From: an uncultured Candidatus Saccharibacteria bacterium
Lineage (GTDB): Bacteria; Patescibacteriota; Minisyncoccia; Phycocordibacterales; XYD1-FULL-46-19
NCBI GenBank assembly: GCA_964639285.1
Contig: CAZXCI010000001.1
Coordinates: forward strand, 285,757-337,069
Length of the DNA: 51,313 nucleotides
Direction: 5' to 3'
Each line of letters begins with the position of its first letter. Position 1 is the first letter of the stretch. The translations under genes and the position numbers were made by a program. Of this stretch, positions 6,970 to 41,355 are shown in pieces. A model generated the notes under the pieces. The model worked only from the letters and a program-made list of their open reading frames with translations. It was not told the DNA's origin and did no database searches.

Positions 6970-7578
6970 ATGGACGAAATCGTATATGTTTTAATAAATG
7001 AAGCAATGCCCGGTTATGTAAAGATCGGGTTGACTAATGGTTCACTTGAAGAGAGAATCCGTTCCCTCGATACAACAAGTGTCCCTCTTCCTTTTGAATG
7101 TTTTTATGCAGCCCGGGTAAAAAATTGTCGAGAAGTTGAGAAATTACTTCATGATGCCTTTTTAGATCATCGGATCCGTTCAAATAGAGAATTTTTTGAA
7201 ATATCTCCTGAGCGAGTGGTCTCGGCCATTAAACTTGCTGAAGTAGAAAATGTAACTCCTAAAAAAGATTTTGTTGAATCTGAGGAAGATCAAAAGGCCT
7301 TAAATCAAGCTCGAGAAAAAAGATCGGCCTTTAATTTCGGAATGGTTAATATCCCAATTGGAGCTGAAATAGCTTTTGTAAACGACGAGAATATAAAGGC
7401 AAAAGTCGTTAAACTTAGCGGAAAAAGAAGCATTGAATTTAATGGTGAACTCACTAGCCCTTCCACTGCCGCCCAAAAAATTCTCGGTTATCCATACAAT
7501 GTACAAGGAACTGTTTATTGGATGTATCAGGGAGAGACTCTTGATGAACGAAGACGAAGACTAGAGAATGAGGAATAA
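6970..7578 (+). CDS. GIY-YIG (T5orf172/MUG113-like) nuclease with C-terminal RAMA-like domain
   Basis: VYVLINEAMPGYVKIGLT, VPLPFEC, EKLLH, NREFF; C-terminal SPSTAAQKIL...GTVYWMY. Confidence 0.8.
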   Translation: MDEIVYVLINEAMPGYVKIGLTNGSLEERIRSLDTTSVPLPFECFYAARVKNCREVEKLLHDAFLDHRIRSNREFFEISPERVVSAIKLAEVENVTPKKDFVESEEDQKALNQAREKRSAFNFGMVNIPIGAEIAFVNDENIKAKVVKLSGKRSIEFNGELTSPSTAAQKILGYPYNVQGTVYWMYQGETLDERRRRLENEE

Positions 7579-7583
7579 TATTT

Positions 7584-10136
7584 ATGAAAGATAAAGAAGC
7601 ACAAGCTAGAATAAAGATAAACAAACTTTTAGAACAAGTAGGTTGGCGTTTTGAAGATTCAGAAAAAGGTAAAGCAAATATCTCTCTAGAGCCTGGAGTG
7701 ACTATTGCTGATGCTGGGGACGATTTTGAGAACATTCCTAAGGGATACATAGACTATCTTCTGTTAGACAAAGATGGTCGTCCTCTTGTTGTACTTGAAG
7801 CTAAAAAAGAATCCATTGAGCCACTTTCAGCAAAAGAACAAGCTCGTAATTATGCGAGAAATGTAGGTGCTCGTTTTGTCATACTTTCAAACGGAAATCT
7901 TCATTATTTTTGGGATACTAAACACGGCAACCCTGATACTATCGCTCGTTTCCCTACACAAGAATCCATAACTCAATTTGAAAGCTACACACCAAACCCC
8001 CAAGAACTAGCTTCTACGGTCGTAGATGAAAATTACATAATCGCTTCCCAAATGCCTGGCTTTGAGAATGATCCATCTTTCAAAGATGGCTCTTTGCTAT
8101 CAGAATTTCTTAGAGCAAACAATTTAAAACAAATGCGTCCATATCAAGTGGAAGCAATTAAAGCAATTCAACAATCAGGACTTCAAGGAAACACTCGTTT
8201 CTTGTTTGAAATGGCGACTGGTACAGGAAAAACACTGACTTCAGCCGCGGTAATTAAACTATTTTTAAAATCTGGTAATGCCCGACGAGTTCTTTTCTTG
8301 GTAGACCGTATTGAACTTGAAGATCAATCATATAAAGCTTTCAGACAATACCTCGGGCGTGACTATACTTGCGTAATCTATAAAGATGCTCGTGATTCTT
8401 GGCAACGTGCACAAATTGTTGTTTCAACAATCCAGACATTCATGGCGAATGATCGGTATAAGAAAGAATTTTCTCCAACCGATTTTGAGTTTGTAATTTC
8501 AGACGAAGCCCACAGATCTATCGGTGGAAACTCACGTGCGGTATTTGAATACTTTGTTGGGTATAAATTAGGGCTAACAGCTACCCCTAAAGACTATCTC
8601 AAGGGGCTTGATGGTGAAGACGAAAATACTCAAAGAGAATTTGAGCGAAGACAAATGTTGGATACCTATAAAACATTTGGTTGTGAGCCGGGTCAGCCAA
8701 CATATCGGTATGATCTTCTAAAAGGTGTACAGGATGGATTTTTAATAAACCCTATTGTTGTAGATGCTCGAACAGAGATCACTACAAAACTTCTCTCTGA
8801 TGACGGATTCGCTGTTCACACAACAACAGAAGACGGAGAAACAGTAGACCAAATCTTTAATGAAAAACACTATGAGAGAAAGTTCTTCAATGAAGAAACC
8901 AATATTGCTATGTGTAAGGCATTCATTGAAAATGGTCTCTTTGATCCTGTTGCAAAGCAAGTAGGTGTACCTTTATTCGGTAAAGGTATTGTTTTCTGCG
9001 TATCTCAAAAACACGCCGCTCGAGTAACTAATATCCTCAATAAACTCGCTTTTCAAAAATGGCCAGATCTTTACAAAGAATCTGATTTTGCGATGCAAGT
9101 AACTTCACAAGTTTCAGATGCACAGCAAATGACTATTAATTTCTCAAATAATAAGTTAGGTGGATCAATTTCTGTTCCTGCTGGATATGATTCTGGCAAA
9201 ACTCGTGTTGCGGTTACGGTCGGAATGATGACAACAGGATATGACTGTCAGGATCTTTTGAACATCGCTTTAATGCGACCAGTATTTAGTCCGTCTGATT
9301 TTGTGCAGATTAAAGGTCGTGGTACACGAAAACATCTTTTCAATTTTACAGACTCAGAAACAAATGAAAATTATCGTGCTGAAAAAGAAACTTTCAAATT
9401 CTTCGACTTTTTTGCAACATGCGAATACTTTGAGAAAGAGTTCAAGTATGACGACAAAATAAAACTACCTGTTATCAAAAAGGTTTCGAGTGCTGACCCA
9501 GTTGAATCTACTCAAGGAGAATTCGTTGATGAAAATGGTGAAAAAGTATTCAAGGGTCCAATAGATCTGCAGTCTGACGACAAGATAGTTTCTGTATCTC
9601 ATACCGAAGTTGGTTCTGACGGTATGCGTATTGACCGTGAAGGCTTTCGTAGAGCTGTGGAAGAAGATATTCTTGCCAACGCTGTGCTCTCTAACCTTTG
9701 GAAGAACGGCGATATAATTGAAGCAGAAGAGTACACCAAAAAACACATATTCGACAAGCCAGCACATTTCTTGAACCTTGAGAAAATCAGAAAGGTTTTC
9801 AATGTAGATCGTAGAATCAGTATTCGAGAATTCCTGCAGATTGCTTTTGGAGAAAAAGATACTTTTGAAAGTAAAAACGAGCTACTTGATGGACAATGGG
9901 ACAAATTCGTAGAGCTTCATCCTGTAGACCCAGATCATTACTATCAAGCAAAGGACTTCTTCAAATCATATATATCTGATTCAGAAGTACGAGATATTAT
10001 TGATCGAAAGGCATACGGTGAACTCTTCCACTCGCCAGCACTATCATTTGAAACATGGAATGCATGTAACGGATATAAAGACATTATTCCTCGATACATC
10101 AAAGACTATGTATCACTTAACACATTTATGAATTAA
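7584..10136 (+). CDS. hsdR: Type I restriction endonuclease subunit R
   Basis: N-terminal PD-(D/E)xK (DYLLLD...LEAKK), MATGTGKT, DEAH, GLTATP, MMTTGYD, QIKGRGTR. Confidence 0.9.
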   Translation: MKDKEAQARIKINKLLEQVGWRFEDSEKGKANISLEPGVTIADAGDDFENIPKGYIDYLLLDKDGRPLVVLEAKKESIEPLSAKEQARNYARNVGARFVILSNGNLHYFWDTKHGNPDTIARFPTQESITQFESYTPNPQELASTVVDENYIIASQMPGFENDPSFKDGSLLSEFLRANNLKQMRPYQVEAIKAIQQSGLQGNTRFLFEMATGTGKTLTSAAVIKLFLKSGNARRVLFLVDRIELEDQSYKAFRQYLGRDYTCVIYKDARDSWQRAQIVVSTIQTFMANDRYKKEFSPTDFEFVISDEAHRSIGGNSRAVFEYFVGYKLGLTATPKDYLKGLDGEDENTQREFERRQMLDTYKTFGCEPGQPTYRYDLLKGVQDGFLINPIVVDARTEITTKLLSDDGFAVHTTTEDGETVDQIFNEKHYERKFFNEETNIAMCKAFIENGLFDPVAKQVGVPLFGKGIVFCVSQKHAARVTNILNKLAFQKWPDLYKESDFAMQVTSQVSDAQQMTINFSNNKLGGSISVPAGYDSGKTRVAVTVGMMTTGYDCQDLLNIALMRPVFSPSDFVQIKGRGTRKHLFNFTDSETNENYRAEKETFKFFDFFATCEYFEKEFKYDDKIKLPVIKKVSSADPVESTQGEFVDENGEKVFKGPIDLQSDDKIVSVSHTEVGSDGMRIDREGFRRAVEEDILANAVLSNLWKNGDIIEAEEYTKKHIFDKPAHFLNLEKIRKVFNVDRRISIREFLQIAFGEKDTFESKNELLDGQWDKFVELHPVDPDHYYQAKDFFKSYISDSEVRDIIDRKAYGELFHSPALSFETWNACNGYKDIIPRYIKDYVSLNTFMN

Positions 10137-10138
10137 TT

Positions 10139-12124
10139 ATGCTTACACAAGACACAAAAAAACACATAGACGCCGCGAGACAGATTCTTGTTGGTGTTGT
10201 TCCAAATCCAATGTCTCAAGTGGAGCAAATTACCAATGCTCTTATTTACAAATTCATGGACGACATGGATCAACAAGCTATCAAAGCTGGTGGTGATCCC
10301 TCTTTCTTCGTAAAAGACCTTGAAAAATACGCTTGGACAAAAGTAATGGATTCTCGTTTAGGTAACCAAGAACGAATGAACCTCTATACCGAAGCGTTGA
10401 TGAAATTTTCAGAAGCAAAGCAACTACCACAGCTTTTCAGAGATATTTTCAAACAAGCATTTTTGCCATATCGAGATCCAGAAGTTCTTGGTCTTTTCCT
10501 AAAAGAAATTTCATACTTTGATTACACCCATTCAGAAGAACTCGGAAATGCATATGAGTATCTTCTTTCAATTATGTCATCACAAGGTGATGCAGGACAA
10601 TTCCGTACACCTCGCCATATTATTGATTTCATTGTTGATGTTCTCGTCCCAACTAAGGACGACACTATTCTAGATCCTGCTTGTGGTACTGCTGGATTTT
10701 TGATTAGTGCGTACAACTATATCAAGAGACAAAACGAAGGTGTCGATCCAGAGACTGGAAAGATGCGACAGCTTACAGCAGACGAACGCAGAAAACTGGT
10801 AAATAACTTTGAGGGATACGACGTTGATCCGACTATGGTTCGTATGTCACAGGTAAACATGTATTTGCATAAGTTTACTACTCCAAAAATCTACAACTAC
10901 AACACCCTTGCAAGTGAAGAACGCTGGAATGATAAGTTTGATGTTATTTTGGCGAATCCTCCGTTTATGTCTCCAAAAGGAGGTATAAAGCCACATAATA
11001 AATTCAGTGTTCAAGCGAACCGTGCCGAAGTTCTCTTTGTGGATTACATAATGAATCACCTTAAGCCAAAAGGACGAGCAGGCATTATCGTTCCAGAGGG
11101 TATTATCTTCCAATCAGGAAAAGCATATAAGGAACTTCGTAAGAATCTCGTGAATGACGGACTGTTTGCCGTTGTATCACTCCCTGTTGGGGTGTTTAAT
11201 CCATACTCAGGAGTAAAAACCAGTATTCTATTTTTTGATAATGAAGTAGCAAAGAAAACAAAAGATTTGTTGTTTGTAAAAGTAACCAGTGACGGATACG
11301 ACCTTGGTGCGCAACGCAGAAAGATTGATAAAGATGACTTGCCAGATGTTGGAAGTATTTTGAAGAATTTCCGAGGGCAGGTTAACGCTGGAAAAGATAC
11401 AGAGACCATTCAATCTTTTGTAGAAAAGTCAGATAAGGCTTTATTGGTTTCAAAAGAAAAAATTGCAGAAAATGATGAGTATAATCTTTCAGCCGATAGG
11501 TATAAAGAAATAAATACATATGAAAATGCAAAATGGGAAGTTATTGAATTAGGGAAATTAGAAGATGAGGGTAAAATTGAATTTCTAAGAGGTCAAGGAA
11601 TATCTAAAAAAGATATTGTCGATGGTGGTAAAAATAAATGCATACACTATGGTGAAATATACACTTTATACCAACCAGTAATTTCTAATGTAATAAGTAG
11701 AACAAATTTTGAGGGAAAAATTCGATCAGTCAAGGGTGATGTTTTAGTCCCATCAACAACCACAGCAGATGCCTACGGAATAGCAGTTGCTAGGTCATTA
11801 AATGAAGATGGTGTAGTTTTGGGTGGAGATATAAATATAATAAGAACAAAGAATCAATATTTATTATCTGATTTTCTTGCTTATTTAATTAGTAATTCTG
11901 AAGTTAAAAATCAACTTGCAACTTTTGCAAAAGGCGTAAATATCCTGCATCTTTCTAACTCCGATCTTCGAAAATTAAAGATTCCTCTTCCTCCACTCGA
12001 AGTTCAAAAAGAAATTGTTGAACAAATTGAGGTAAAACAAAAAGCCATTGAGGGTGCAAAACAAGTCATCGAAAATCTAGAGAGAGAGAGAGACGATATT
12101 TTGGTCAGTCACTTAGGAAGTTAG
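10139..12124 (+). CDS. hsdM: Type I R-M methyltransferase M fused to first specificity (TRD) domain; 5' part of a frameshifted M-S fusion
   Basis: GQFRTPRHII, DPACGTAGF, NPPF (m6A); C-terminal TRD ending IPLPPLEVQKEIV. Confidence 0.9.
   Translation: MLTQDTKKHIDAARQILVGVVPNPMSQVEQITNALIYKFMDDMDQQAIKAGGDPSFFVKDLEKYAWTKVMDSRLGNQERMNLYTEALMKFSEAKQLPQLFRDIFKQAFLPYRDPEVLGLFLKEISYFDYTHSEELGNAYEYLLSIMSSQGDAGQFRTPRHIIDFIVDVLVPTKDDTILDPACGTAGFLISAYNYIKRQNEGVDPETGKMRQLTADERRKLVNNFEGYDVDPTMVRMSQVNMYLHKFTTPKIYNYNTLASEERWNDKFDVILANPPFMSPKGGIKPHNKFSVQANRAEVLFVDYIMNHLKPKGRAGIIVPEGIIFQSGKAYKELRKNLVNDGLFAVVSLPVGVFNPYSGVKTSILFFDNEVAKKTKDLLFVKVTSDGYDLGAQRRKIDKDDLPDVGSILKNFRGQVNAGKDTETIQSFVEKSDKALLVSKEKIAENDEYNLSADRYKEINTYENAKWEVIELGKLEDEGKIEFLRGQGISKKDIVDGGKNKCIHYGEIYTLYQPVISNVISRTNFEGKIRSVKGDVLVPSTTTADAYGIAVARSLNEDGVVLGGDINIIRTKNQYLLSDFLAYLISNSEVKNQLATFAKGVNILHLSNSDLRKLKIPLPPLEVQKEIVEQIEVKQKAIEGAKQVIENLERERDDILVSHLGS
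12079..12093 (+). repeat. (AG)7A dinucleotide tract at the M-S frameshift point
   Basis: ct-agagagagagagaga-cgatat; deleting one AG unit fuses 10139.. in frame with 12136..12657 without stops. Confidence 0.85.
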
Positions 12125-12135
12125 ATGACATTGAA

Positions 12136-12657
12136 ATGATTGAGTTAGCTCAAATTGCTGATGTTACAGCAGGACAGTCACCAGAAGGAAAATATTACAA
12201 TGAGAATAGAGACGGTGTGCCATTTTACCAAGGAAAGACTGAGTTTGGAGACATGTTTATCGGTGAGCCAAGAGTGTGGACGACTAAGGTCACAAAAATT
12301 GCAAAAGCTGGTGATATTCTTATGTCTGTTAGGGCACCAGTCGGTCCTGTTAATCTTGTAAATGAGAAGGTATGTATTGGTCGAGGTCTTGCTTCTATTA
12401 GACCAAAAAATATAGAGCAGACGTATTTATTTAATTATTTAAGATCAATACAGGATGAAATCATAGGGAATGGTGGTGCGGTTTTTGATTCTATAAACAA
12501 GTCACAAATTGAAAAAATTCTTATACCAGTTGTCTCGATTGAAAAACAAAAAGAAATTGTCAAAAAATTAGAAATTGAAGAAGAGATAATTGAATCAAAC
12601 AAAAAACTTATTGATTTAATGCAGAAAAAGATAGAGGAAGTTTTATCTGAAATCTAA
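12136..12657 (+). CDS. hsdS: Type I R-M specificity subunit, second TRD (3' part of the frameshifted M-S fusion)
   Basis: GQSP, GDILMSVRAPVG, IGRGLASI, IPVVSIEKQKEIV; single TRD only. Confidence 0.88.
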   Translation: MIELAQIADVTAGQSPEGKYYNENRDGVPFYQGKTEFGDMFIGEPRVWTTKVTKIAKAGDILMSVRAPVGPVNLVNEKVCIGRGLASIRPKNIEQTYLFNYLRSIQDEIIGNGGAVFDSINKSQIEKILIPVVSIEKQKEIVKKLEIEEEIIESNKKLIDLMQKKIEEVLSEI

Positions 12658-12665
12658 AGCAATTT

Positions 12666-13421
12666 ATGAAGTTTATATTTATTGATGAGTTTAAATATAA
12701 TCATAAAAAAGACTACAGGGTTTATGGTCTTGCCTTAGTGATAATAGACTCAAATTTTTATCCAGGTTTTAAGAAGACATTTTATAAAGAAATTGAAAAA
12801 ATTGGTTGGGATAAAAATTTTGAATTTAAAGGTAAATCCTTGTTTTCTGCTTCCGATGGAGATATAAGGGTTTCGGTTGAAAAAAGAATCGATTGTATGG
12901 AAAAAATAGTTAATTTAAGTACTACCAAATCTGGGAAAATAGCAAAAACGCCAGTTTATGTATCATTAGAATTATTTGATAATAAGACGAGTGAATACGA
13001 TTGTTATAAAGTATGCCTAGAGAAAATAATTAAAAAGTTGCCAAAAGTGAATAATGCTAAAAAATCTTTGATTTCGGTTTCTTATGATGAAAATGAGAGT
13101 CTAGAAAAAGATTTTGATAATGTTATTGAATTTTTGTTGCAAAAAAGAGGGTATGTTTTATTTGAAAAGCCATACAGCGTTAAATCTTCACTAAAAGTTC
13201 CTGGGATTTTATTTGCGGATTATGTTTGCTATTTTCATCAGACTTTTTTTACTCAATCAAAATTTAGAAAAGAAAATGCTCAAGAAATTTTATCTATCTT
13301 GGAAAAAGAAAATAAGACAGGGGAAGATGAAAAGAAAATACAGACAGTGATCTATAATTATAGAAAAGAATCAAAGACCAAAGATCTGATTCTTTCAATA
13401 AAAAAGGTAGTATATGTATGA
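12666..13421 (+). CDS. DUF3800-like (RNase H fold) protein
   Basis: N-terminal FIDE and C-terminal GILFADYV pattern typical of DUF3800. Confidence 0.6.
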   Translation: MKFIFIDEFKYNHKKDYRVYGLALVIIDSNFYPGFKKTFYKEIEKIGWDKNFEFKGKSLFSASDGDIRVSVEKRIDCMEKIVNLSTTKSGKIAKTPVYVSLELFDNKTSEYDCYKVCLEKIIKKLPKVNNAKKSLISVSYDENESLEKDFDNVIEFLLQKRGYVLFEKPYSVKSSLKVPGILFADYVCYFHQTFFTQSKFRKENAQEILSILEKENKTGEDEKKIQTVIYNYRKESKTKDLILSIKKVVYV

Positions 13422-14127
13422 AGACTTACGAGGCATTAATGCATATTTGTCCGTAAAAAACGAGAGTGAGGAAGAACAGAAATATCTCTCTGGACTATAT
13501 ACTCAATATATAAATGCTACAGAGTCTGAATCGTATCATTTAGCGCTTTTTGCATACCATCTTTTATTTATGTCTTTTGTGTATCAAACGATGTATAAAA
13601 TTAAAGAGTGGTATCCTGAAAAATTTAAGCTGGCTCTCATAACCTCATCGAAACAAGAGAGGGATGAATATTTAGAGACAAAATCTTGTTGGATATTTTC
13701 AAAAATTAGAGAGAGAACAATATTTAGTTTGATTCATATATTGGCAGATAATGATGGACTGGTTGAAAGTTGTAAGAAGAAGATAGTTGATTACAGAAAT
13801 GAAAAACTTGGACATGCTAACCCAATAATGGTTGGCGAATTTGAATTTAACCAAAAAATAAAAGAGTACAATGAAATAGCTTGTGATATTCAACAAATGG
13901 CCCACGAAAAACTAGGCGCACTATTTCAAGAATTCACTGAGCTTTTTGAGGAAACCGATAAAATAACAAAGGACGATCTTGAGTTAAATCTGATCATTAA
14001 CAATAGATTGAGTGAAAAAGATTTAGAATGTCTTGGTGCTGAATGTACGATACAAAACACTATCATCCATAATAAAATTAAGGATGTATTGATAAAAGAT
14101 TACGGTATTGAAATCACTGTAATTTAA
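13414..14127 (+). CDS. Hypothetical protein, possible HEPN domain
   Basis: Helical acidic protein with YRNEKLGH (Rx5H) motif; overlaps the upstream gene by 8 bp. Confidence 0.5.
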   Translation: MYEDLRGINAYLSVKNESEEEQKYLSGLYTQYINATESESYHLALFAYHLLFMSFVYQTMYKIKEWYPEKFKLALITSSKQERDEYLETKSCWIFSKIRERTIFSLIHILADNDGLVESCKKKIVDYRNEKLGHANPIMVGEFEFNQKIKEYNEIACDIQQMAHEKLGALFQEFTELFEETDKITKDDLELNLIINNRLSEKDLECLGAECTIQNTIIHNKIKDVLIKDYGIEITVI

Positions 14128-15436
14128 CGGTTTTATCTTGTAGGGTCATTTTCGATTTAAAACAAGTGAGTAATTCTCTCTTTTCTTCAGTAGACCCATC
14201 TTTTAAAATAAACTTGGCGTAGTCTCTGATATCGACATCTTTTATTTGTGGTGGCTGTTTTACTCCAAGAACCGATTGATTAAATTTCTTTATTCGTTCG
14301 ACTTCTTCTTTGATCCTCTCCTTCATCCCAATTTCATCGATATCAATAGTTTCGATTAAGTTCTGAAGCTGTTTTACTAGGTCTTCTTCTTTAACATATC
14401 CACACTTACAATTCTTATCCCTAGCCTTAGTACAACCATAATATACATAGCGATGAGTATTGCCATTCTTTTGTTTTTTAAATTTTTCATCGGCACAGAT
14501 ACCAGAACCACATAGACCACAAGTCATCAGTTTAGTAAAAGCAAATTCTTTAGGTTCTTGAATCCTTAACACTTGGCTTTTGATCTGTCCTTGAACCTGA
14601 TCAAACAATTCTTTAGTTATTAATGGTTGATGTTTTCCTGTATACCAATTACCACTTTTTACTGGGTATTCAAAGACTCCGTAATAAAAAGGATTTTGTA
14701 AGATCTGATAAATGTTGCCGAGAGTTAGCCCTTTGTTCCCTGTCACACTCTTAAAATTAAGCTCAAATTTCAGCCAATGAAAAACCTTTCGACCGCTCCA
14801 TTTTTCGTAAGCGACCTTTTCAAATATCTTTTTAATAATCGGGCCACGTTCGGGATCAATTATAACTTGGCACTTCCGATCCATATGTCTTTCGTTTATA
14901 TAACCAACCACAGCTGGCCCAGGTCTTAATCCCATTTCACACCTTGTTCTTAATCCTCGTTTTACGTTAATACTTTTATTATCATTCTCAAGCTTAGCTT
15001 GAGAACATAAAATCATGAGTAAAAACTTGTCGTTTGGTGAATTTTTAAAATATTGACCAAAAGTGCGAATTTCAAAAAGAAGTTTCTGATCCATTAAATC
15101 AACAAGTGAACCTAAGTCCCCAGCGTTACGACTTAAACGGTCTGGTGCCCATGTCAGAATTCCATTAAATCGGCCTCGTCTAATATCTTCTAGTAATTCC
15201 TTAAAAACAGGTCGTTGCCCTGAGTCTTTGGCGGAATGAGATTCTCGTCTTATGTCTATAATTTCCAAGCCCTCCCTTTCGGCGATCTGAAGCATTTCCT
15301 TAACTTGAGATTCAATCGATAATGCCTGTTTTTCGTCTGATTCGGTCGACTTACGAGCATAAAGACAGTATTTAACCTTTTGGGTCGGTAGGGCTATTGG
15401 TTGGCCTATTTGGGCACTTATGGCTTGTATTTCCAT
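14114..15436 (-). CDS. Large serine recombinase (resolvase + recombinase + Zn ribbon)
   Basis: YARKS catalytic Ser, DRLSRN, CGLCG...YYGC...C zinc ribbon. Confidence 0.92.
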   Translation of the reverse strand: MEIQAISAQIGQPIALPTQKVKYCLYARKSTESDEKQALSIESQVKEMLQIAEREGLEIIDIRRESHSAKDSGQRPVFKELLEDIRRGRFNGILTWAPDRLSRNAGDLGSLVDLMDQKLLFEIRTFGQYFKNSPNDKFLLMILCSQAKLENDNKSINVKRGLRTRCEMGLRPGPAVVGYINERHMDRKCQVIIDPERGPIIKKIFEKVAYEKWSGRKVFHWLKFELNFKSVTGNKGLTLGNIYQILQNPFYYGVFEYPVKSGNWYTGKHQPLITKELFDQVQGQIKSQVLRIQEPKEFAFTKLMTCGLCGSGICADEKFKKQKNGNTHRYVYYGCTKARDKNCKCGYVKEEDLVKQLQNLIETIDIDEIGMKERIKEEVERIKKFNQSVLGVKQPPQIKDVDIRDYAKFILKDGSTEEKRELLTCFKSKMTLQDKTVKLQ

Positions 15437-39024: not shown

Positions 39025-39035
39025 CCAGTTCCCCC

Positions 39036-39085
39036 CCCCCTGACATTACGGAAAGACCCCGTACGTGTCAGCGGGGTTTTTCTTT
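39036..39085 (+). terminator. Intrinsic terminator
   Basis: ccccctgacattacgg...ccgtacgtgtcagcgggg followed by tttttctttt. Confidence 0.7.
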
Positions 39086-39186
39086 TTCTTATTTTTTCCT
39101 GGTAATATTATAATTCTCACACTGCAGAAAAAATCCTCAATTTGACAAATTGTGACAAGAAGACTAATACTTGCTACACTAGCAAA

Positions 39187-41355
39187 ATGAAATTACTTAT
39201 TGTTGAATCGCCAGCGAAGGCGAAGACCATTGCAAAATATTTAGATAACGCCTACACCGTCAAAGCGAGTGTGGGGCATATTCGTGATTTACCCAAATCG
39301 AATAAAAATGCAATTGATATCGAAGGGGGCTTCGTTCCTCGTTATGAAATTAGTAAGGGCAAAGAGCATGTCATTAAAGAACTGACCCAACTAACAAAAA
39401 AAGCTGATGAAGTCTTACTCGCAACTGACCCCGACCGTGAAGGTGAGGCTATTGCTTGGCACCTGCAACAAGAACTTAAATTAAAAAACCCAAAACGTGT
39501 TGCTTTCAACGAAATTACTAAGGAGGCGGTCCAAGAAGCGATGAAGCACCCACGGGGCATTGATACAAATTTACGTGTCGCCCAAGAAGCCCGACGTGTC
39601 TTAGATCGACTCTTCGGTTATGATCTCTCTGCTCTCATTTGGCAAAAGGTGCGCTACGGCCTCTCCGCTGGTCGAGTACAGTCCCCGGCCCTGCGTCTTA
39701 TCGTCGAGAAAGAAAAGGAGGTCCGCGCCTTTATTCCCGAAGCCTATTGGGTAATTGACGCCCTGTTTGAAGACAAAAAGAAAAAGCAGATTCCTTTCAA
39801 ATGTTCCATCGAACCCAAAACTGAGAAAGAGGCGGACGAAATTGTTGACCGAACCCAAAAATCTGCTTGGCAAGTCGAGAAGATCGAAGAAACCAAGGTT
39901 AAACGTTCGGCCCGAGCCCCCTTCACCACCTCAACCTTACAACAGAGTGCTTCTTCCCGACTCGGCTACGCTCCAAGCGTAACCATGCGTCTGGCTCAAA
40001 AACTCTATGAAGCGGGACATATTAGTTATATGCGCACTGACAGCACAACCTTAAGTCAGCAAGCGGTGGGAGAAATTGCCGAGGTGATTAAAAAGAAGTT
40101 TGGCGATGATTATTCTGACCCCAAACAATTCAAGACCAAGAGCAAGAATGCTCAAGAGGCCCACGAAGCTATCCGACCAACCCATGTCAGTGTTGGAAGC
40201 GCCGGAACCAGTCCTCAAGAAAAAAAGTTGTACCAATTAATCTGGCAACGCACTGTCGCCAGCCAAATGGCCGATGCCGAAACCCTCCGTACCAAAATTA
40301 CCGCTAAAGCTAGTGATGACAAGATTCCTAGTTTTGAGACATCTGGCTCTCATGTTCTCTTCGATGGTTGGCTCAAGGCCGACCCCGAAGCCCGGGGCGA
40401 AGAAGTTGACTTGCCCAAACTTGCCCAAGGTGACCTACTCAAACTTATAAACATCAATTCGACTGGTAAAGAAACTGAACCTCCTCATCGTTATACCGAA
40501 GCGGGGTTAATTAAAGAACTCGAAAAACGAGGTATCGGCCGACCAAGTACTTACGCCTCTATCATTAAGACAATTCAAGATCGTGATTATGTAATCAAAG
40601 AAAACAAATCCCTTAAGCCTACGGACACCGGCGAAGTGGTTAGCGATTTTCTTAGTGAATATTTTGCCAATTACATCAGTGACACCTTCACCGCCGAAAT
40701 GGAAAATGAGCTGGATGAAATTGCTACTGGCGGACGAGATTATGTCAAAACACTTAAGGATTTCTACGGGCCATTTACTAAAGAGATCAAAAGCAAAAAG
40801 AAAATTGAAAAAATTACTAACCTGGGCGAAGCGCCAAAAGGTATGAAGTGTCCTAAGTGCGGTTCCGAAATGATTACCAAACTCGCCAAGAGTGGCAAGT
40901 TCTATAGTTGCTCTCGTTTTCCTGATTGTAATGGAGCCCTGACGATAGAGGGTAAAGAACTCGAAGGCCCGAAGATAACAGGAGATAAATGTCCTGAGTG
41001 TAGCGGTGATCTCATCGAGCGCGATGGGAAATTTGGGCGTTTTGTCGCCTGCTCAAAATATCCCAAATGTCGCTATATTAAGAAAGATGCCGTGATTGAA
41101 GGCCAGGAGAAACAAGGTGACACTGGCGTCGAGTGTCCGATATGTAAAGCAGGTTCGATGGTAGAAAAGAGGGGCCGTTTTGGTGTCTTCTATGGCTGTT
41201 CAAATTATCCAAAATGTAAAAATATTATTAAGACCAAACCTACTGGCCGAATTTGTCCCGAATGCAATAGCCTGATGATGGAAGGGACCAAAACCATCCC
41301 CGAACGCTGTTCTAATAAAGCCTGCCCTAATCACAATCCTCATCGGATGAAATAA
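39187..41355 (+). CDS. topA: DNA topoisomerase I
   Basis: LIVESPAK, ATDPDREGEAIAWH, SAGRVQ, SYMRTDS, GIGRPSTYA, C-terminal C4 zinc ribbons. Confidence 0.98.
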   Translation: MKLLIVESPAKAKTIAKYLDNAYTVKASVGHIRDLPKSNKNAIDIEGGFVPRYEISKGKEHVIKELTQLTKKADEVLLATDPDREGEAIAWHLQQELKLKNPKRVAFNEITKEAVQEAMKHPRGIDTNLRVAQEARRVLDRLFGYDLSALIWQKVRYGLSAGRVQSPALRLIVEKEKEVRAFIPEAYWVIDALFEDKKKKQIPFKCSIEPKTEKEADEIVDRTQKSAWQVEKIEETKVKRSARAPFTTSTLQQSASSRLGYAPSVTMRLAQKLYEAGHISYMRTDSTTLSQQAVGEIAEVIKKKFGDDYSDPKQFKTKSKNAQEAHEAIRPTHVSVGSAGTSPQEKKLYQLIWQRTVASQMADAETLRTKITAKASDDKIPSFETSGSHVLFDGWLKADPEARGEEVDLPKLAQGDLLKLININSTGKETEPPHRYTEAGLIKELEKRGIGRPSTYASIIKTIQDRDYVIKENKSLKPTDTGEVVSDFLSEYFANYISDTFTAEMENELDEIATGGRDYVKTLKDFYGPFTKEIKSKKKIEKITNLGEAPKGMKCPKCGSEMITKLAKSGKFYSCSRFPDCNGALTIEGKELEGPKITGDKCPECSGDLIERDGKFGRFVACSKYPKCRYIKKDAVIEGQEKQGDTGVECPICKAGSMVEKRGRFGVFYGCSNYPKCKNIIKTKPTGRICPECNSLMMEGTKTIPERCSNKACPNHNPHRMK

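What the first reader, a model, noticed from the sequence alone, without database searches (positions are those of the whole stretch)
12079..12138. (AG)7 slippage tract splits a type I M-S fusion: candidate phase-variable restriction system
Seen: hsdM-TRD1 ends 11 codons after an (AG)7A tract. Removing one AG unit gives ...ENLERERRYFGQSLRKLDDIEMIELAQ..., running stop-free into the downstream TRD2 ORF to make one ~838-aa M-TRD1-TRD2 protein. Established: SSR slippage in hsdS/mod genes produces phase-variable methylation (phasevarions), mostly described in host-adapted pathogens. Inference: the switch could be ON/OFF, or it could change specificity (symmetric TRD1 dimer versus TRD1+TRD2), because both halves can still be translated.
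Basis: partly seen in the sequence, partly recalled or inferred. Interest (0 to 1): 0.7.

Follow-up and report, generated by a model that had tools for sequence, protein, structure and literature searches.

The report
Repeat-driven switch in fused restriction-methylase gene
A run of seven GA units sits at the hinge of a fused methylase/DNA-recognition gene of a restriction system in a tiny uncultured bacterium, and near-identical relatives differ by exactly one unit there, so the gene most likely flips between a one-reader and a two-reader enzyme with different DNA targets; this kind of switch is known, but here it is in an unusual fused gene and looks purpose-built.

Summary
(GA)7 lies at 12080-12093 and is the only dinucleotide run of 6 or more units in the 708,803-bp genome. 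It ends a 661-aa HsdM~TRD1 ORF 10 codons later. Removing one unit gives an 838-aa HsdM~TRD1~TRD2 protein.

- Homologues form two length classes: ~805-860 aa (…ENLERER-RYFGQSLRKLE…) and ~632-672 aa (…ENLERER-DDILVSHLGS*). Both read the same DNA in two frames.
- In 68 related loci the tract is (GA)6 in 41, (GA)7 in 18, and (GA)5 or (GA)8 in a few.
- Three near-clonal contig sets (3.6-9.8 kb, 0-4 SNPs) differ by exactly one GA unit.
- TRD2 stays intact in 23 of 24 out-of-frame loci.
- Both off-frames keep a stop at a fixed place in 58 of 58 sequences, through invariant third codon positions.
- The frame-2 tail copies the normal C-terminal helix end.

Most likely this is a heritable slipped-strand switch of specificity between an asymmetric TRD1+TRD2 site and a symmetric TRD1 dimer site. 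It resembles NgoAV, in a natural M~S fusion family common in CPR bacteria. This genome carries the split allele. No methylation data exist.

The parts
7584..10136 (+). hsdR: Type I restriction/motor subunit (850 aa), intact, ending 2 nt before the M~S gene
   Evidence: Pfam HSDR_N_2 + ResIII + SWI2_SNF2. NCBIfam's nearest model is the EcoAI/FtnUII R family, at 223 bits, below the 550-bit cut-off. PADLOC REase_I.
10139..12124 (+). HsdM~TRD1 ORF (661 aa): gamma-class N6-adenine methyltransferase fused to the first target-recognition domain and the conserved helix. This is the 'short form' made by the (GA)7 allele.
   Evidence: Pfam N6_Mtase 133-461 and Methylase_S 466-648. The AF2 model has pLDDT 84 and a terminal helix at residues 620-659. 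The best fold match is 7EEW, the V. vulnificus intact MTase.
12080..12093 (+). (GA)7 tract, encoding E-R-E-R and the first two bases of the next codon; the slippage site
   Evidence: It is the longest dinucleotide run in the genome. Relatives have 5-8 units at the same place.
12094..12124 (+). Dual-coded stretch. In the (GA)7 frame, whose first codon GAC begins at 12092 with the last tract unit, it gives the tail DDILVSHLGS and TAG (12122-12124). In the (GA)6 frame it gives the linker RYFGQSLRKLD. The third frame stops at TAG 12114-12116.
   Evidence: Codon 7 (CTT/ATT) and codon 10 (TTA/ATA/CTA/GTA) keep invariant third bases in 58 of 58 distinct sequences, so both off-frame stops are preserved. 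The tail aligns without gaps to the C-terminal end of CR2.
12136..12657 (+). TRD2 plus distal conserved helix (173 aa from its own ATG). It becomes the C-terminal part of the 838-aa fusion when the tract is (GA)6.
   Evidence: Pfam Methylase_S 2-160. PADLOC Specificity_I, 172 bits. The frame is open from 12094. The same TRD2 is fused in P0003, P0005 and P0056.
6970..7578 (+). Context: T5orf172/GIY-YIG-like gene directly upstream of hsdR (candidate defence gene PDC-S57)
   Evidence: Pfam T5orf172. PADLOC PDC-S57, 241 bits.
12666..14127 (+). Context: two overlapping cargo genes (251 aa with a weak DUF3800 match, and 237 aa with no match) in the variable slot behind the RM genes
   Evidence: The same slot holds an AIPR gene in L001, a 352-aa gene with no match in L209 and a 778-aa SEC-C protein in L213.
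14114..15436 (-). Context: large serine recombinase closing the island
   Evidence: Pfam Resolvase + Recombinase + Zn_ribbon_recom. A recombinase also lies next to the locus in L001 and L209. The locus is absent from 60 related genomes.

Best explanation
This is a Type I-like restriction-modification operon: a separate HsdR plus a natural HsdM~HsdS fusion. The specificity part carries a hypermutable (GA)n tract in the last turns of the central conserved helix. Slipped-strand mispairing during replication adds or removes GA units, heritably and reversibly. With n=6 (or any n that is a multiple of 3), one 838-aa M~TRD1~TRD2 protein is made and should read an asymmetric two-part site. With n=7, as in this genome, translation shifts frame. 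It adds a 10-residue tail that completes the helix in the manner of the normal C-terminus, then stops. The resulting 661-aa M~TRD1 'half' should pair with a second copy through the helix, giving two methylases and two identical readers, and so a symmetric site. TRD2 remains as a separate ORF that may be translated by re-initiation. With n=5 or n=8, a third frame stops after 7 residues. A clonal population therefore holds cells with different restriction and methylation specificities. What is shown: the anatomy, the tract-length polymorphism, near-clonal pairs that differ by one unit, the conserved off-frame stops, and the helix completion in the models. What is inferred: slippage in this organism itself, dimerisation of the short form, the change of specificity, and translation of TRD2.
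For: 1. Anatomy of the tract and the two ORFs.
2. Two length classes of homologues share the DNA after ERER, read in two frames: RYFGQSLRKLE versus DDILVSHLGS*.
3. In 68 family loci, 44 are in frame, 19 are in frame +2 and 5 are in the third frame. Pure tracts: (GA)6 in 41, (GA)7 in 18, (GA)5 in 5, (GA)8 in 1.
4. Three near-clonal sets differ by one GA unit:
   - L156 versus L157: 9.76 kb, 4 SNPs.
   - L209-211 versus L212: 3.6 kb, 1 SNP.
   - L213 versus L214-216: 7.9 kb, 0-2 substituted bases.
   P0025/P0035 and P0088/P0085 are 100% identical over 624 and 637 aa yet differ in state.
5. On a tree of the M domain, the state needs at least 16 changes among 49 loci. The five label shuffles that were printed gave 17-20.
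6. The TRD2 frame is open for 176-203 codons in 23 of 24 out-of-frame loci, so this is not decay.
7. Both off-frame stops are kept in 58 of 58 distinct sequences through invariant third positions. Neighbouring third positions have entropy of 0.5-1.4 bits, and the first base of codon 10 takes all four letters.
8. GAG is 27% of Glu codons and AGA is 28% of Arg codons, so a pure GA coding of ERER is expected in about 0.5% of cases. It is seen in 10 of 13 loci that were not selected for the tract.
9. CR1 plus the frame-2 tail (AIEGAKQVIENLERERDDILVSHLGS*) aligns without gaps to the CR2 consensus (IIESNKKLIEIMEKKIEEVLSEI*).
10. The AF2 models give a 40-residue terminal helix in the short form (620-659). 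The fused homologue has a 40-residue CR1 (618-657) and a 38-residue CR2.
11. Precedents: NgoAV and the SSR survey (PMC7383803); engineered MSfus and M-half-S fusions, both active with HsdR (PMC6158711); the natural M~half-S 'intact MTase' 7EEW as best fold match.
Against: - No reads could be examined for this genome, so a mixture of alleles in this population is not shown.
- The window's own small clade in the DNA sample (WIN, L001, L129, L173, L165) is all (GA)7. Protein hits of the same clade are mostly fused.
- There are no methylome or expression data.
- (GA)6-7 is short for a dinucleotide contingency tract, so the switching rate may be modest.
- The conservation of the off-frame stops and of the tail is not corrected for shared ancestry.
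- The metagenome sample was ascertained with a pattern that fixed CGMTATTTTGG.
Confidence: 0.75

Rival explanations
1. Plain ON/OFF switch. Only the fused (GA)6 protein is functional, and the (GA)7 and (GA)5/8 alleles are null states of the restriction system. These nulls could serve, for example, to let foreign DNA in or to escape self-restriction.
For: The fused state is the majority, 44 of 68. The engineered EcoKI M~S work shows that assembly is sensitive to stoichiometry (PMC3510504). In one lineage the state change coincides with an hsdR A8/A7 frameshift.
Against: The frame-2 tail is conserved, mimics CR2 and ends at a fixed stop. The short form is modelled with a full-length helix. Unshifted M~half-S proteins exist in the same family, for example P0072, P0100 and P0114. 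M~half-S fusions are active (PMC6158711), and one has been crystallised as an intact MTase (7EEW).
Confidence: 0.12
2. Static frameshift or fixed split gene. The tract is an evolutionary polymorphism that changes only rarely, and in this genome M~TRD1 and TRD2 are simply two permanent genes, or a young pseudogene.
For: All five members of the window's DNA clade carry (GA)7. TRD2 here has its own ATG 11 nt after the ORF1 stop. Out-of-frame loci have ATG at that codon more often, 9 of 22 versus 6 of 42, p=0.03 uncorrected.
Against: In three near-clonal sets the GA unit changed while 3.6-9.8 kb accumulated only 0-4 substitutions. The state is nearly random on the tree. TRD2 is intact almost everywhere.
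Confidence: 0.08
3. Recoding. One allele yields both products, through ribosomal slippage by two bases on the GAGAGA run or through polymerase stuttering. This would supply the extra M that a two-TRD fusion may need.
For: tRNAs can re-pair perfectly after a 2-nt slip in the repeat (inference). The EcoKI MS fusion needed added free M in vitro (PMC3510504). No other hsdM or hsdS exists in the genome.
Against: DNA-level length differences already explain both forms. There is no unusual RNA structure downstream, z = 0.16. No precedent was found in the literature searches.
Confidence: 0.04
4. Assembly or sequencing error in this genome: the true tract is (GA)6.
For: Reads could not be checked.
Against: (GA)7 with the same tail occurs in 18 independent assemblies, and about 20 database proteins carry the same tail. 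A 95%-identical relative from another run also has (GA)7. A 14-bp dinucleotide run is not error-prone for short-read consensus (general knowledge).
Confidence: 0.03

Closest known systems
NgoAV Type IC system of Neisseria gonorrhoeae, and the SSR-bearing hsdS genes surveyed by Atack et al. 2020 (PMC7383803)
   Same: A simple-sequence repeat between the two TRDs of the specificity gene shifts the frame. The result is either a full two-TRD S or a truncated one-TRD S that dimerises and changes specificity. The tract meets that survey's criterion of GA[5] or longer inside an ORF.
   Different: Here the S part is covalently fused to HsdM, so the switch toggles M~S against M~half-S. The repeat is a dinucleotide conserved across a large environmental family dominated by CPR bacteria, not a poly-G in a host-adapted pathogen. 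There are three defined frames with conserved off-frame stops and a tail that mimics the C-terminus. R is closest to EcoAI (Type IB)-like enzymes, not Type IC.
Engineered 'MSfus' and 'M-half-S fus' derivatives of S. aureus CC398-1 (Bower et al. 2018, PMC6158711) and the EcoKI MS fusion (Roberts et al. 2012, PMC3510504)
   Same: The two states of this locus have the same domain orders as the two engineered proteins. Both engineered proteins methylated and, with HsdR, restricted, with asymmetric and symmetric targets respectively.
   Different: Those were laboratory constructs made separately. Here nature encodes both in one gene, selected by repeat length.
Vibrio vulnificus YJ016 'intact MTase' (PDB 7EEW)
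   Same: Best structural match of the 661-aa short form. The alignment spans the whole chain (699 columns), Foldseek E = 1.8e-26. It is a natural methylase chain that also carries a recognition domain and helix.
   Different: Only 19% identity, TM about 0.45-0.48 because domain orientations differ. I know of no repeat tract or downstream second TRD in that system (not checked).
Single-chain Type IIB/IIG enzymes: HaeIV (R~M~[TRD], homodimer) and AloI/PpiI/TstI (R~M~TRD~TRD), as tabulated in Loenen et al. 2014 (PMC3874165)
   Same: Both M~one-TRD and M~two-TRD layouts exist as working natural enzymes.
   Different: Those enzymes carry the nuclease on the same chain and have no motor subunit. Each layout is fixed in those enzymes, not interconverted by a repeat.

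Membership tests
Type I restriction-modification system | HsdR with an N-terminal nuclease region and an SF2 motor | tested here: met
   HSDR_N_2 + ResIII/SWI2_SNF2. PADLOC REase_I. The EcoAI-family model scores 223 bits, below its 550-bit cut-off.
Type I restriction-modification system | Gamma-class N6-adenine methyltransferase of the HsdM type | tested here: met
   Pfam N6_Mtase, 189 bits. PADLOC MTase_I, 343 bits. PDB hits are HsdM chains 5YBB, 2OKC and 2Y7C.
Type I restriction-modification system | Specificity module with two TRDs separated by two conserved helices | tested here: met
   Two Methylase_S domains. The fused homologue model has CR1 at 618-657 and CR2 at 798-835. In this genome the module is split by the frameshift.
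Type I restriction-modification system | M and S are separate subunits assembling as R2M2S1 | tested here: not met
   M and TRD1 form one ORF. The family norm is an M~S fusion. No free hsdM or hsdS lies elsewhere in the genome. It is therefore best called a Type I-like 'M~S fusion' system.
Type I restriction-modification system | ATP-driven translocation and cleavage far from the site | not testable with these tools
   Needs biochemistry.
SSR phase-variable hsdS (NgoAV type; Atack et al. 2020 criteria) | Repeat unit not a multiple of 3, at least 5 dinucleotide units, inside the ORF | tested here: met
   (GA)7 at 12080-12093 within ORF1. The criterion is quoted.
SSR phase-variable hsdS (NgoAV type; Atack et al. 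2020 criteria) | The repeat lies between TRD1 and TRD2, so that a frameshift gives full-length versus truncated S | tested here: met
SSR phase-variable hsdS (NgoAV type; Atack et al. 2020 criteria) | Tract length differs between otherwise identical strains or populations | tested here: met
   Met in three related lineages.
SSR phase-variable hsdS (NgoAV type; Atack et al. 2020 criteria) | The two forms give different methylation specificities | not testable with these tools
   Needs methylomes of each allele.
Phasevarion (phase-variable regulon) | Switching of the methyltransferase changes the expression of a set of genes | not testable with these tools
   No expression or methylation data. 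HsdR is intact here, so a defence role is at least as likely.

The most novel reading that the evidence does not exclude
The (GA)n tract is not an accident of one genome. It may be a selected, dual-coded, three-state contingency element shared by a whole clade of natural HsdM~HsdS fusion systems that spread on recombinase-bearing islands among CPR/Patescibacteria and other uncultured bacteria. The same 30 nt would encode either the linker to TRD2 or a C-terminus-mimicking helix end, with hidden stops kept in both off-frames. One gene would then produce nature's versions of the engineered 'MSfus' and 'M-half-S fus' enzymes, and clonal populations of ultra-small symbionts would hedge their restriction specificity against phages. 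In some lineages an hsdR poly-A tract would add a second switch.
Probability: 0.45. Interest if true: 0.7.

Novelty: new variant of a known kind. Interest (0 to 1): 0.55.

Why it matters
Phase-variable Type I specificity has been tested in one pathogen (NgoAV) and otherwise predicted from REBASE, mostly for cultured, host-adapted bacteria. This locus shows the same principle built into a fused M~S gene family that is abundant in uncultured ultra-small (CPR) bacteria. Population-level evidence of switching comes from metagenomes, and there are signs that both reading frames are under selection. If confirmed, three things follow. First, contingency loci would be part of phage defence in episymbiotic bacteria with minimal genomes. 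Second, there would be a natural pair of enzymes (M~S and M~half-S) for studying how Type I cores assemble when M and S are one chain. Third, annotators would have reason not to call such split genes pseudogenes. My full-text search for Patescibacteria together with restriction-modification and phase-variable found no paper.

Tried and rejected
- Relatives of the host: the locus is absent at the DNA level from 60 related genomes, including 8 of the same genus. No orthologous comparison within the genus was therefore possible.
- Frameshift-stimulating RNA structure downstream of the tract: none, z = 0.16.
- A second switch in hsdR as a family trait: rejected. Only 2 lineages (4 of 32 loci) have A8 runs in hsdR, and the window has none.
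- A literature search for the V. vulnificus M~half-S paper did not find it in the library. Only the PDB title is cited.
- My first regular expressions for the long-form tails were wrong and returned nothing. They were fixed.
- The label-shuffle comparison on the tree printed only five shuffles, so it illustrates the point and is not a test.
- L147 counts as third frame only because of an upstream disruption. L202 is the single out-of-frame locus with a shortened TRD2 frame.
Full report
**1. The observation.**

The window reads ...ATCGAAAATCTA-(GA)7-CGATATTTTGG... The pure repeat is at 12080-12093, or (AG)7A at 12079-12093. Tandem Repeats Finder lists it at 12079-12093 with 7.5 copies and 100% match.

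- ORF1 (10139-12124, 661 aa) runs through the tract and stops at TAG 12122-12124, after the tail DDILVSHLGS.
- ORF2 (12136-12657, 173 aa) lies in the frame reached by removing 2 nt.
- Removing one GA unit in silico gives a single 838-aa protein with no stop, reading ...ENLERERRYFGQSLRKLDDIEMIELAQ....

In the whole 708,803-bp genome (29 contigs, 99.96% complete) there are 119 dinucleotide runs of 4 units, 6 runs of 5 units, none of 6 and only this one of 7. It is not a chance feature of composition.

**2. What the genes are.**

| Coordinates | Gene | Evidence |
|---|---|---|
| 7584-10136 | HsdR-type nuclease/motor | HSDR_N_2, ResIII; nearest NCBIfam model is the EcoAI family, below cut-off; PADLOC REase_I |
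| 10139-12124 | HsdM methyltransferase fused to one target-recognition domain (TRD1) | N6_Mtase, PADLOC MTase_I 343 bits, plus Methylase_S |
| 12136-12657 | Second TRD plus the distal helix | Methylase_S |

No other hsdM or hsdS exists in the genome.

The operon lies in an island:
- A T5orf172/PDC-S57 gene is directly upstream.
- Two cargo genes with no firm family match are downstream.
- A large serine recombinase closes the island.
- The locus is absent from 60 related genomes, including 8 of the same genus.
- Relatives carry other cargo in the same slot, and recombinases beside the locus.

**3. The family and its two forms.**

A protein search with ORF1 returned thousands of relatives. The best 120 fall into two length classes, ~805-860 aa and ~632-672 aa.
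- The long proteins read ...IEVKQKAIEGAKQVIENLERER-RYFGQSLRKLE-TRD2.
- The short proteins, with many different TRD1s, all end ...ENLERER-DDILVSHLGS* or a close variant.

The two continuations are the same DNA read in two frames.

A wider subfamily of M~S fusions has a different centre (ENWKPKIDIDPEW) and no tract. M~S fusions as such are common: at least 579 loci among species-representative genomes of many phyla, mostly CPR.

**4. DNA evidence for length variation.**

*Loci chosen by protein similarity only.* Thirteen of these loci have the ERER-type centre, and all write it with GA repeats:
- 10 are pure: (GA)5, (GA)6 or (GA)7.
- 3 are interrupted.

*Pattern scan of metagenome contigs.* The pattern allowed 4-10 units and added more loci. 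The 68 family loci in total divide as follows:

| Tract | Loci |
|---|---|
| (GA)6 | 41 |
| (GA)7 | 18 |
| (GA)5 | 5 |
| (GA)5AAA (interrupted) | 2 |
| (GA)8 | 1 |
| Interrupted form equivalent to 7 units | 1 |

By reading frame, 44 are fused, 19 are in the +2 frame and 5 are in the third frame.

*Near-clonal sets.* Most telling are three sets of nearly identical contigs from different samples:

| Contigs, (GA)7 versus (GA)6 | Aligned length | Differences other than the GA unit |
|---|---|---|
| L156 vs L157 (sibling JGI samples) | 9.76 kb | 4 SNPs and an A5/A6 indel |
| L209-L211 vs L212 | 3.6 kb | 1 SNP |
| L213 vs L214-L216 | 7.9 kb | 0-2 substituted bases and an A8/A7 change in hsdR |

At the protein level, P0025/P0035 and P0088/P0085 are 100% identical over 624 and 637 residues, yet one of each pair is short and the other long.

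On a tree of the methylase domain, the frame state needs at least 16 changes among 49 loci. That is close to what shuffled labels give (17-20 in the five shuffles printed).

The tract therefore changes far faster than the surrounding sequence, which is the signature of a contingency locus.

**5. Signs that both frames are used.**

(a) In 23 of 24 out-of-frame loci with enough sequence, the TRD2 frame is still open for 176-203 codons, as in the fused loci. The split state is therefore not decay.

(b) Both alternative frames always terminate at fixed places. The +2 frame stops after 10 residues and the third frame after 7.
- These stops are made by codon 7 (CTT or ATT, followed by AG or AA) and codon 10 (TTA, ATA, CTA or GTA, followed by G or A) of the fused frame.
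- The third base of both codons is invariant in 58 of 58 distinct sequences.
- Third bases of neighbouring codons have 0.5-1.4 bits of entropy, and the first base of codon 10 takes all four letters.
- xTA codons are only 27% of Leu codons, and ATA is 17% of Ile codons, in these genes.

(c) GAG is 27% of Glu codons and AGA is 28% of Arg codons. ERER would therefore be written as a pure repeat only about 0.5% of the time.

(d) The central helix plus the +2-frame tail (AIEGAKQVIENLERERDDILVSHLGS*) aligns without gaps to the consensus of the distal helix end (IIESNKKLIEIMEKKIEEVLSEI*). DDIL falls on EEVL.

(e) AlphaFold models support a complete helix in the short form.
- The window's 661-aa protein (pLDDT 84) ends in a 40-residue helix, 620-659.
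- A fused homologue with the same TRD2 (P0003, pLDDT 83) has a 40-residue central helix (618-657) and a 38-residue distal helix (798-835).

The short form thus keeps a complete pairing helix.

(f) Unshifted M~half-S proteins occur in the same family, for example P0072, which ends NLEKEIQEVLSEV*.

Caveats: points (b)-(d) are not corrected for shared ancestry, and CGMTATTTTGG was fixed by my search pattern.

**6. Mechanism.**

The best-supported reading is heritable slipped-strand mispairing at (GA)n.

| Tract | Product | Expected behaviour |
|---|---|---|
| n=6 | M~TRD1~TRD2 | Asymmetric two-part site |
| n=7 (this genome) | M~TRD1 with a helix-completing tail | Expected to dimerise and read a symmetric site |
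| n=5 or n=8 | M~TRD1 with a different 7-residue tail | Unknown; possibly a crippled form |

With n=7, TRD2 may be translated separately. Its ATG (12136) lies 11 nt after the ORF1 stop. Out-of-frame loci have ATG at that codon more often than fused loci: 9 of 22 versus 6 of 42, p=0.03, uncorrected.

Published work makes both main forms plausible enzymes:
- Engineered MSfus and M-half-S fusions of a staphylococcal system both methylated and, with HsdR, restricted (PMC6158711).
- Truncated S subunits dimerise and give symmetric targets, and co-expressed halves regenerate the parental specificity (PMC3874165).
- NgoAV switches specificity through a poly-G tract in hsdS (PMC7383803).
- The best structural match of the short form is the V. 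vulnificus 'intact MTase' chain 7EEW.

One puzzle remains open. An EcoKI M~S fusion needed extra free M in vitro (PMC3510504), and it is not known how a 1 M: 2 TRD protein assembles.

**7. Rivals.**

- *Plain ON/OFF switch.* Less likely, because of points 5(b)-(f).
- *Static split gene.* Contradicted by the near-clonal pairs. However, the five DNA-sampled members of the window's own clade all carry (GA)7.
- *Recoding on the repeat.* Has no support: there is no downstream RNA structure, z = 0.16.
- *Assembly error.* Unlikely, because (GA)7 recurs in 18 independent assemblies and in a 95%-identical relative.

**8. Comparison and novelty.**

Placing an SSR between the TRDs of a Type I specificity gene is a known design. 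NgoAV has been tested, and 7.8% of REBASE hsdS genes are predicted to carry such repeats (PMC7383803). This locus differs in four ways:
- The switch sits in a natural M~S fusion.
- It is conserved across a large environmental family centred on CPR bacteria.
- It has three defined frames with preserved hidden stops.
- Its alternative tail mimics the normal C-terminus.

A full-text search for Patescibacteria together with restriction-modification and phase-variable found no paper.

Earlier AI notes of this scan reported the same (AG)7 tract in other genomes and reached the same general reading. I treated them as leads only and re-derived the evidence here.

I rate the finding as a new variant of a known kind, with interest 0.55.

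Noticed in passing
L213:1238 versus L214/L215/L216 (hsdR of a related lineage): The near-clonal contigs that differ by one GA unit also differ at a poly-A run in hsdR. With A8, HsdR is intact (838 aa) and the locus carries (GA)7. With A7, HsdR is split into 262 + 530 aa and the locus carries (GA)6, in three samples. This may be a second switch that turns restriction off. It is not a family trait: A8 runs occur in only 4 of 32 loci, and there is none in the window.
   Followed up: partly
L156:1682 versus L157:660: An A5/A6 indel just upstream of an ATG (…GATAT(A)AAAAATG…), 5.7 kb upstream of the GA tract. Apart from four SNPs it is the only other difference between the two near-clonal contigs.
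   Followed up: no
window 39031-39040: A C10 homopolymer lies in the intergenic stretch between a 96-aa ORF and topA (39142-41355), next to a terminator-like hairpin. The genome holds eight G or C runs of 9-10 bases, which may be further contingency sites.
   Followed up: partly
window 12122-12139: The ORF1 stop TAG is followed at once by an ATG (12126). This opens a 4-codon mini-ORF (MTLK) whose TGA overlaps the ATG of the TRD2 ORF (ATGA at 12136-12139). AGGAAG lies at 12115-12120, 5 nt before the mini-ORF's ATG. This could be a coupling relay for TRD2 translation, but it is not conserved in relatives.
   Followed up: no
window 6970-7578: The T5orf172/GIY-YIG-like gene ending 5 nt before hsdR is a strong match to the PADLOC candidate defence family PDC-S57 (241 bits). 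L209 has an HTH gene at this position instead.
   Followed up: partly
window 12666-14127; L001:5276-7030; L209:5474-6532; L213:5448-7784: The slot directly behind TRD2 holds different cargo in each relative: a DUF3800-like plus 237-aa pair here, AIPR in L001, a 352-aa gene with no match in L209, and a 778-aa SEC-C-motif protein in L213. A serine recombinase follows in the window, L001 and L209.
   Followed up: partly
P0072 (641 aa), P0100, P0104, P0114-P0116: Relatives that are M~half-S without any frameshift. P0072 ends ...AIENLEKEIQEVLSEV*. That is a CR1/CR2 hybrid helix, as if TRD2 had been deleted by recombination between the two conserved helices.
   Followed up: no
L150 and L190: Two fused-state loci carry an in-frame insertion (…RYFGQALIRRRQGFGGQEKLEG…) in the linker just after the tract. 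Its DNA (TCCGCCGACGCCAAGGCTTTGGCGGAC) is palindrome-like.
   Followed up: no
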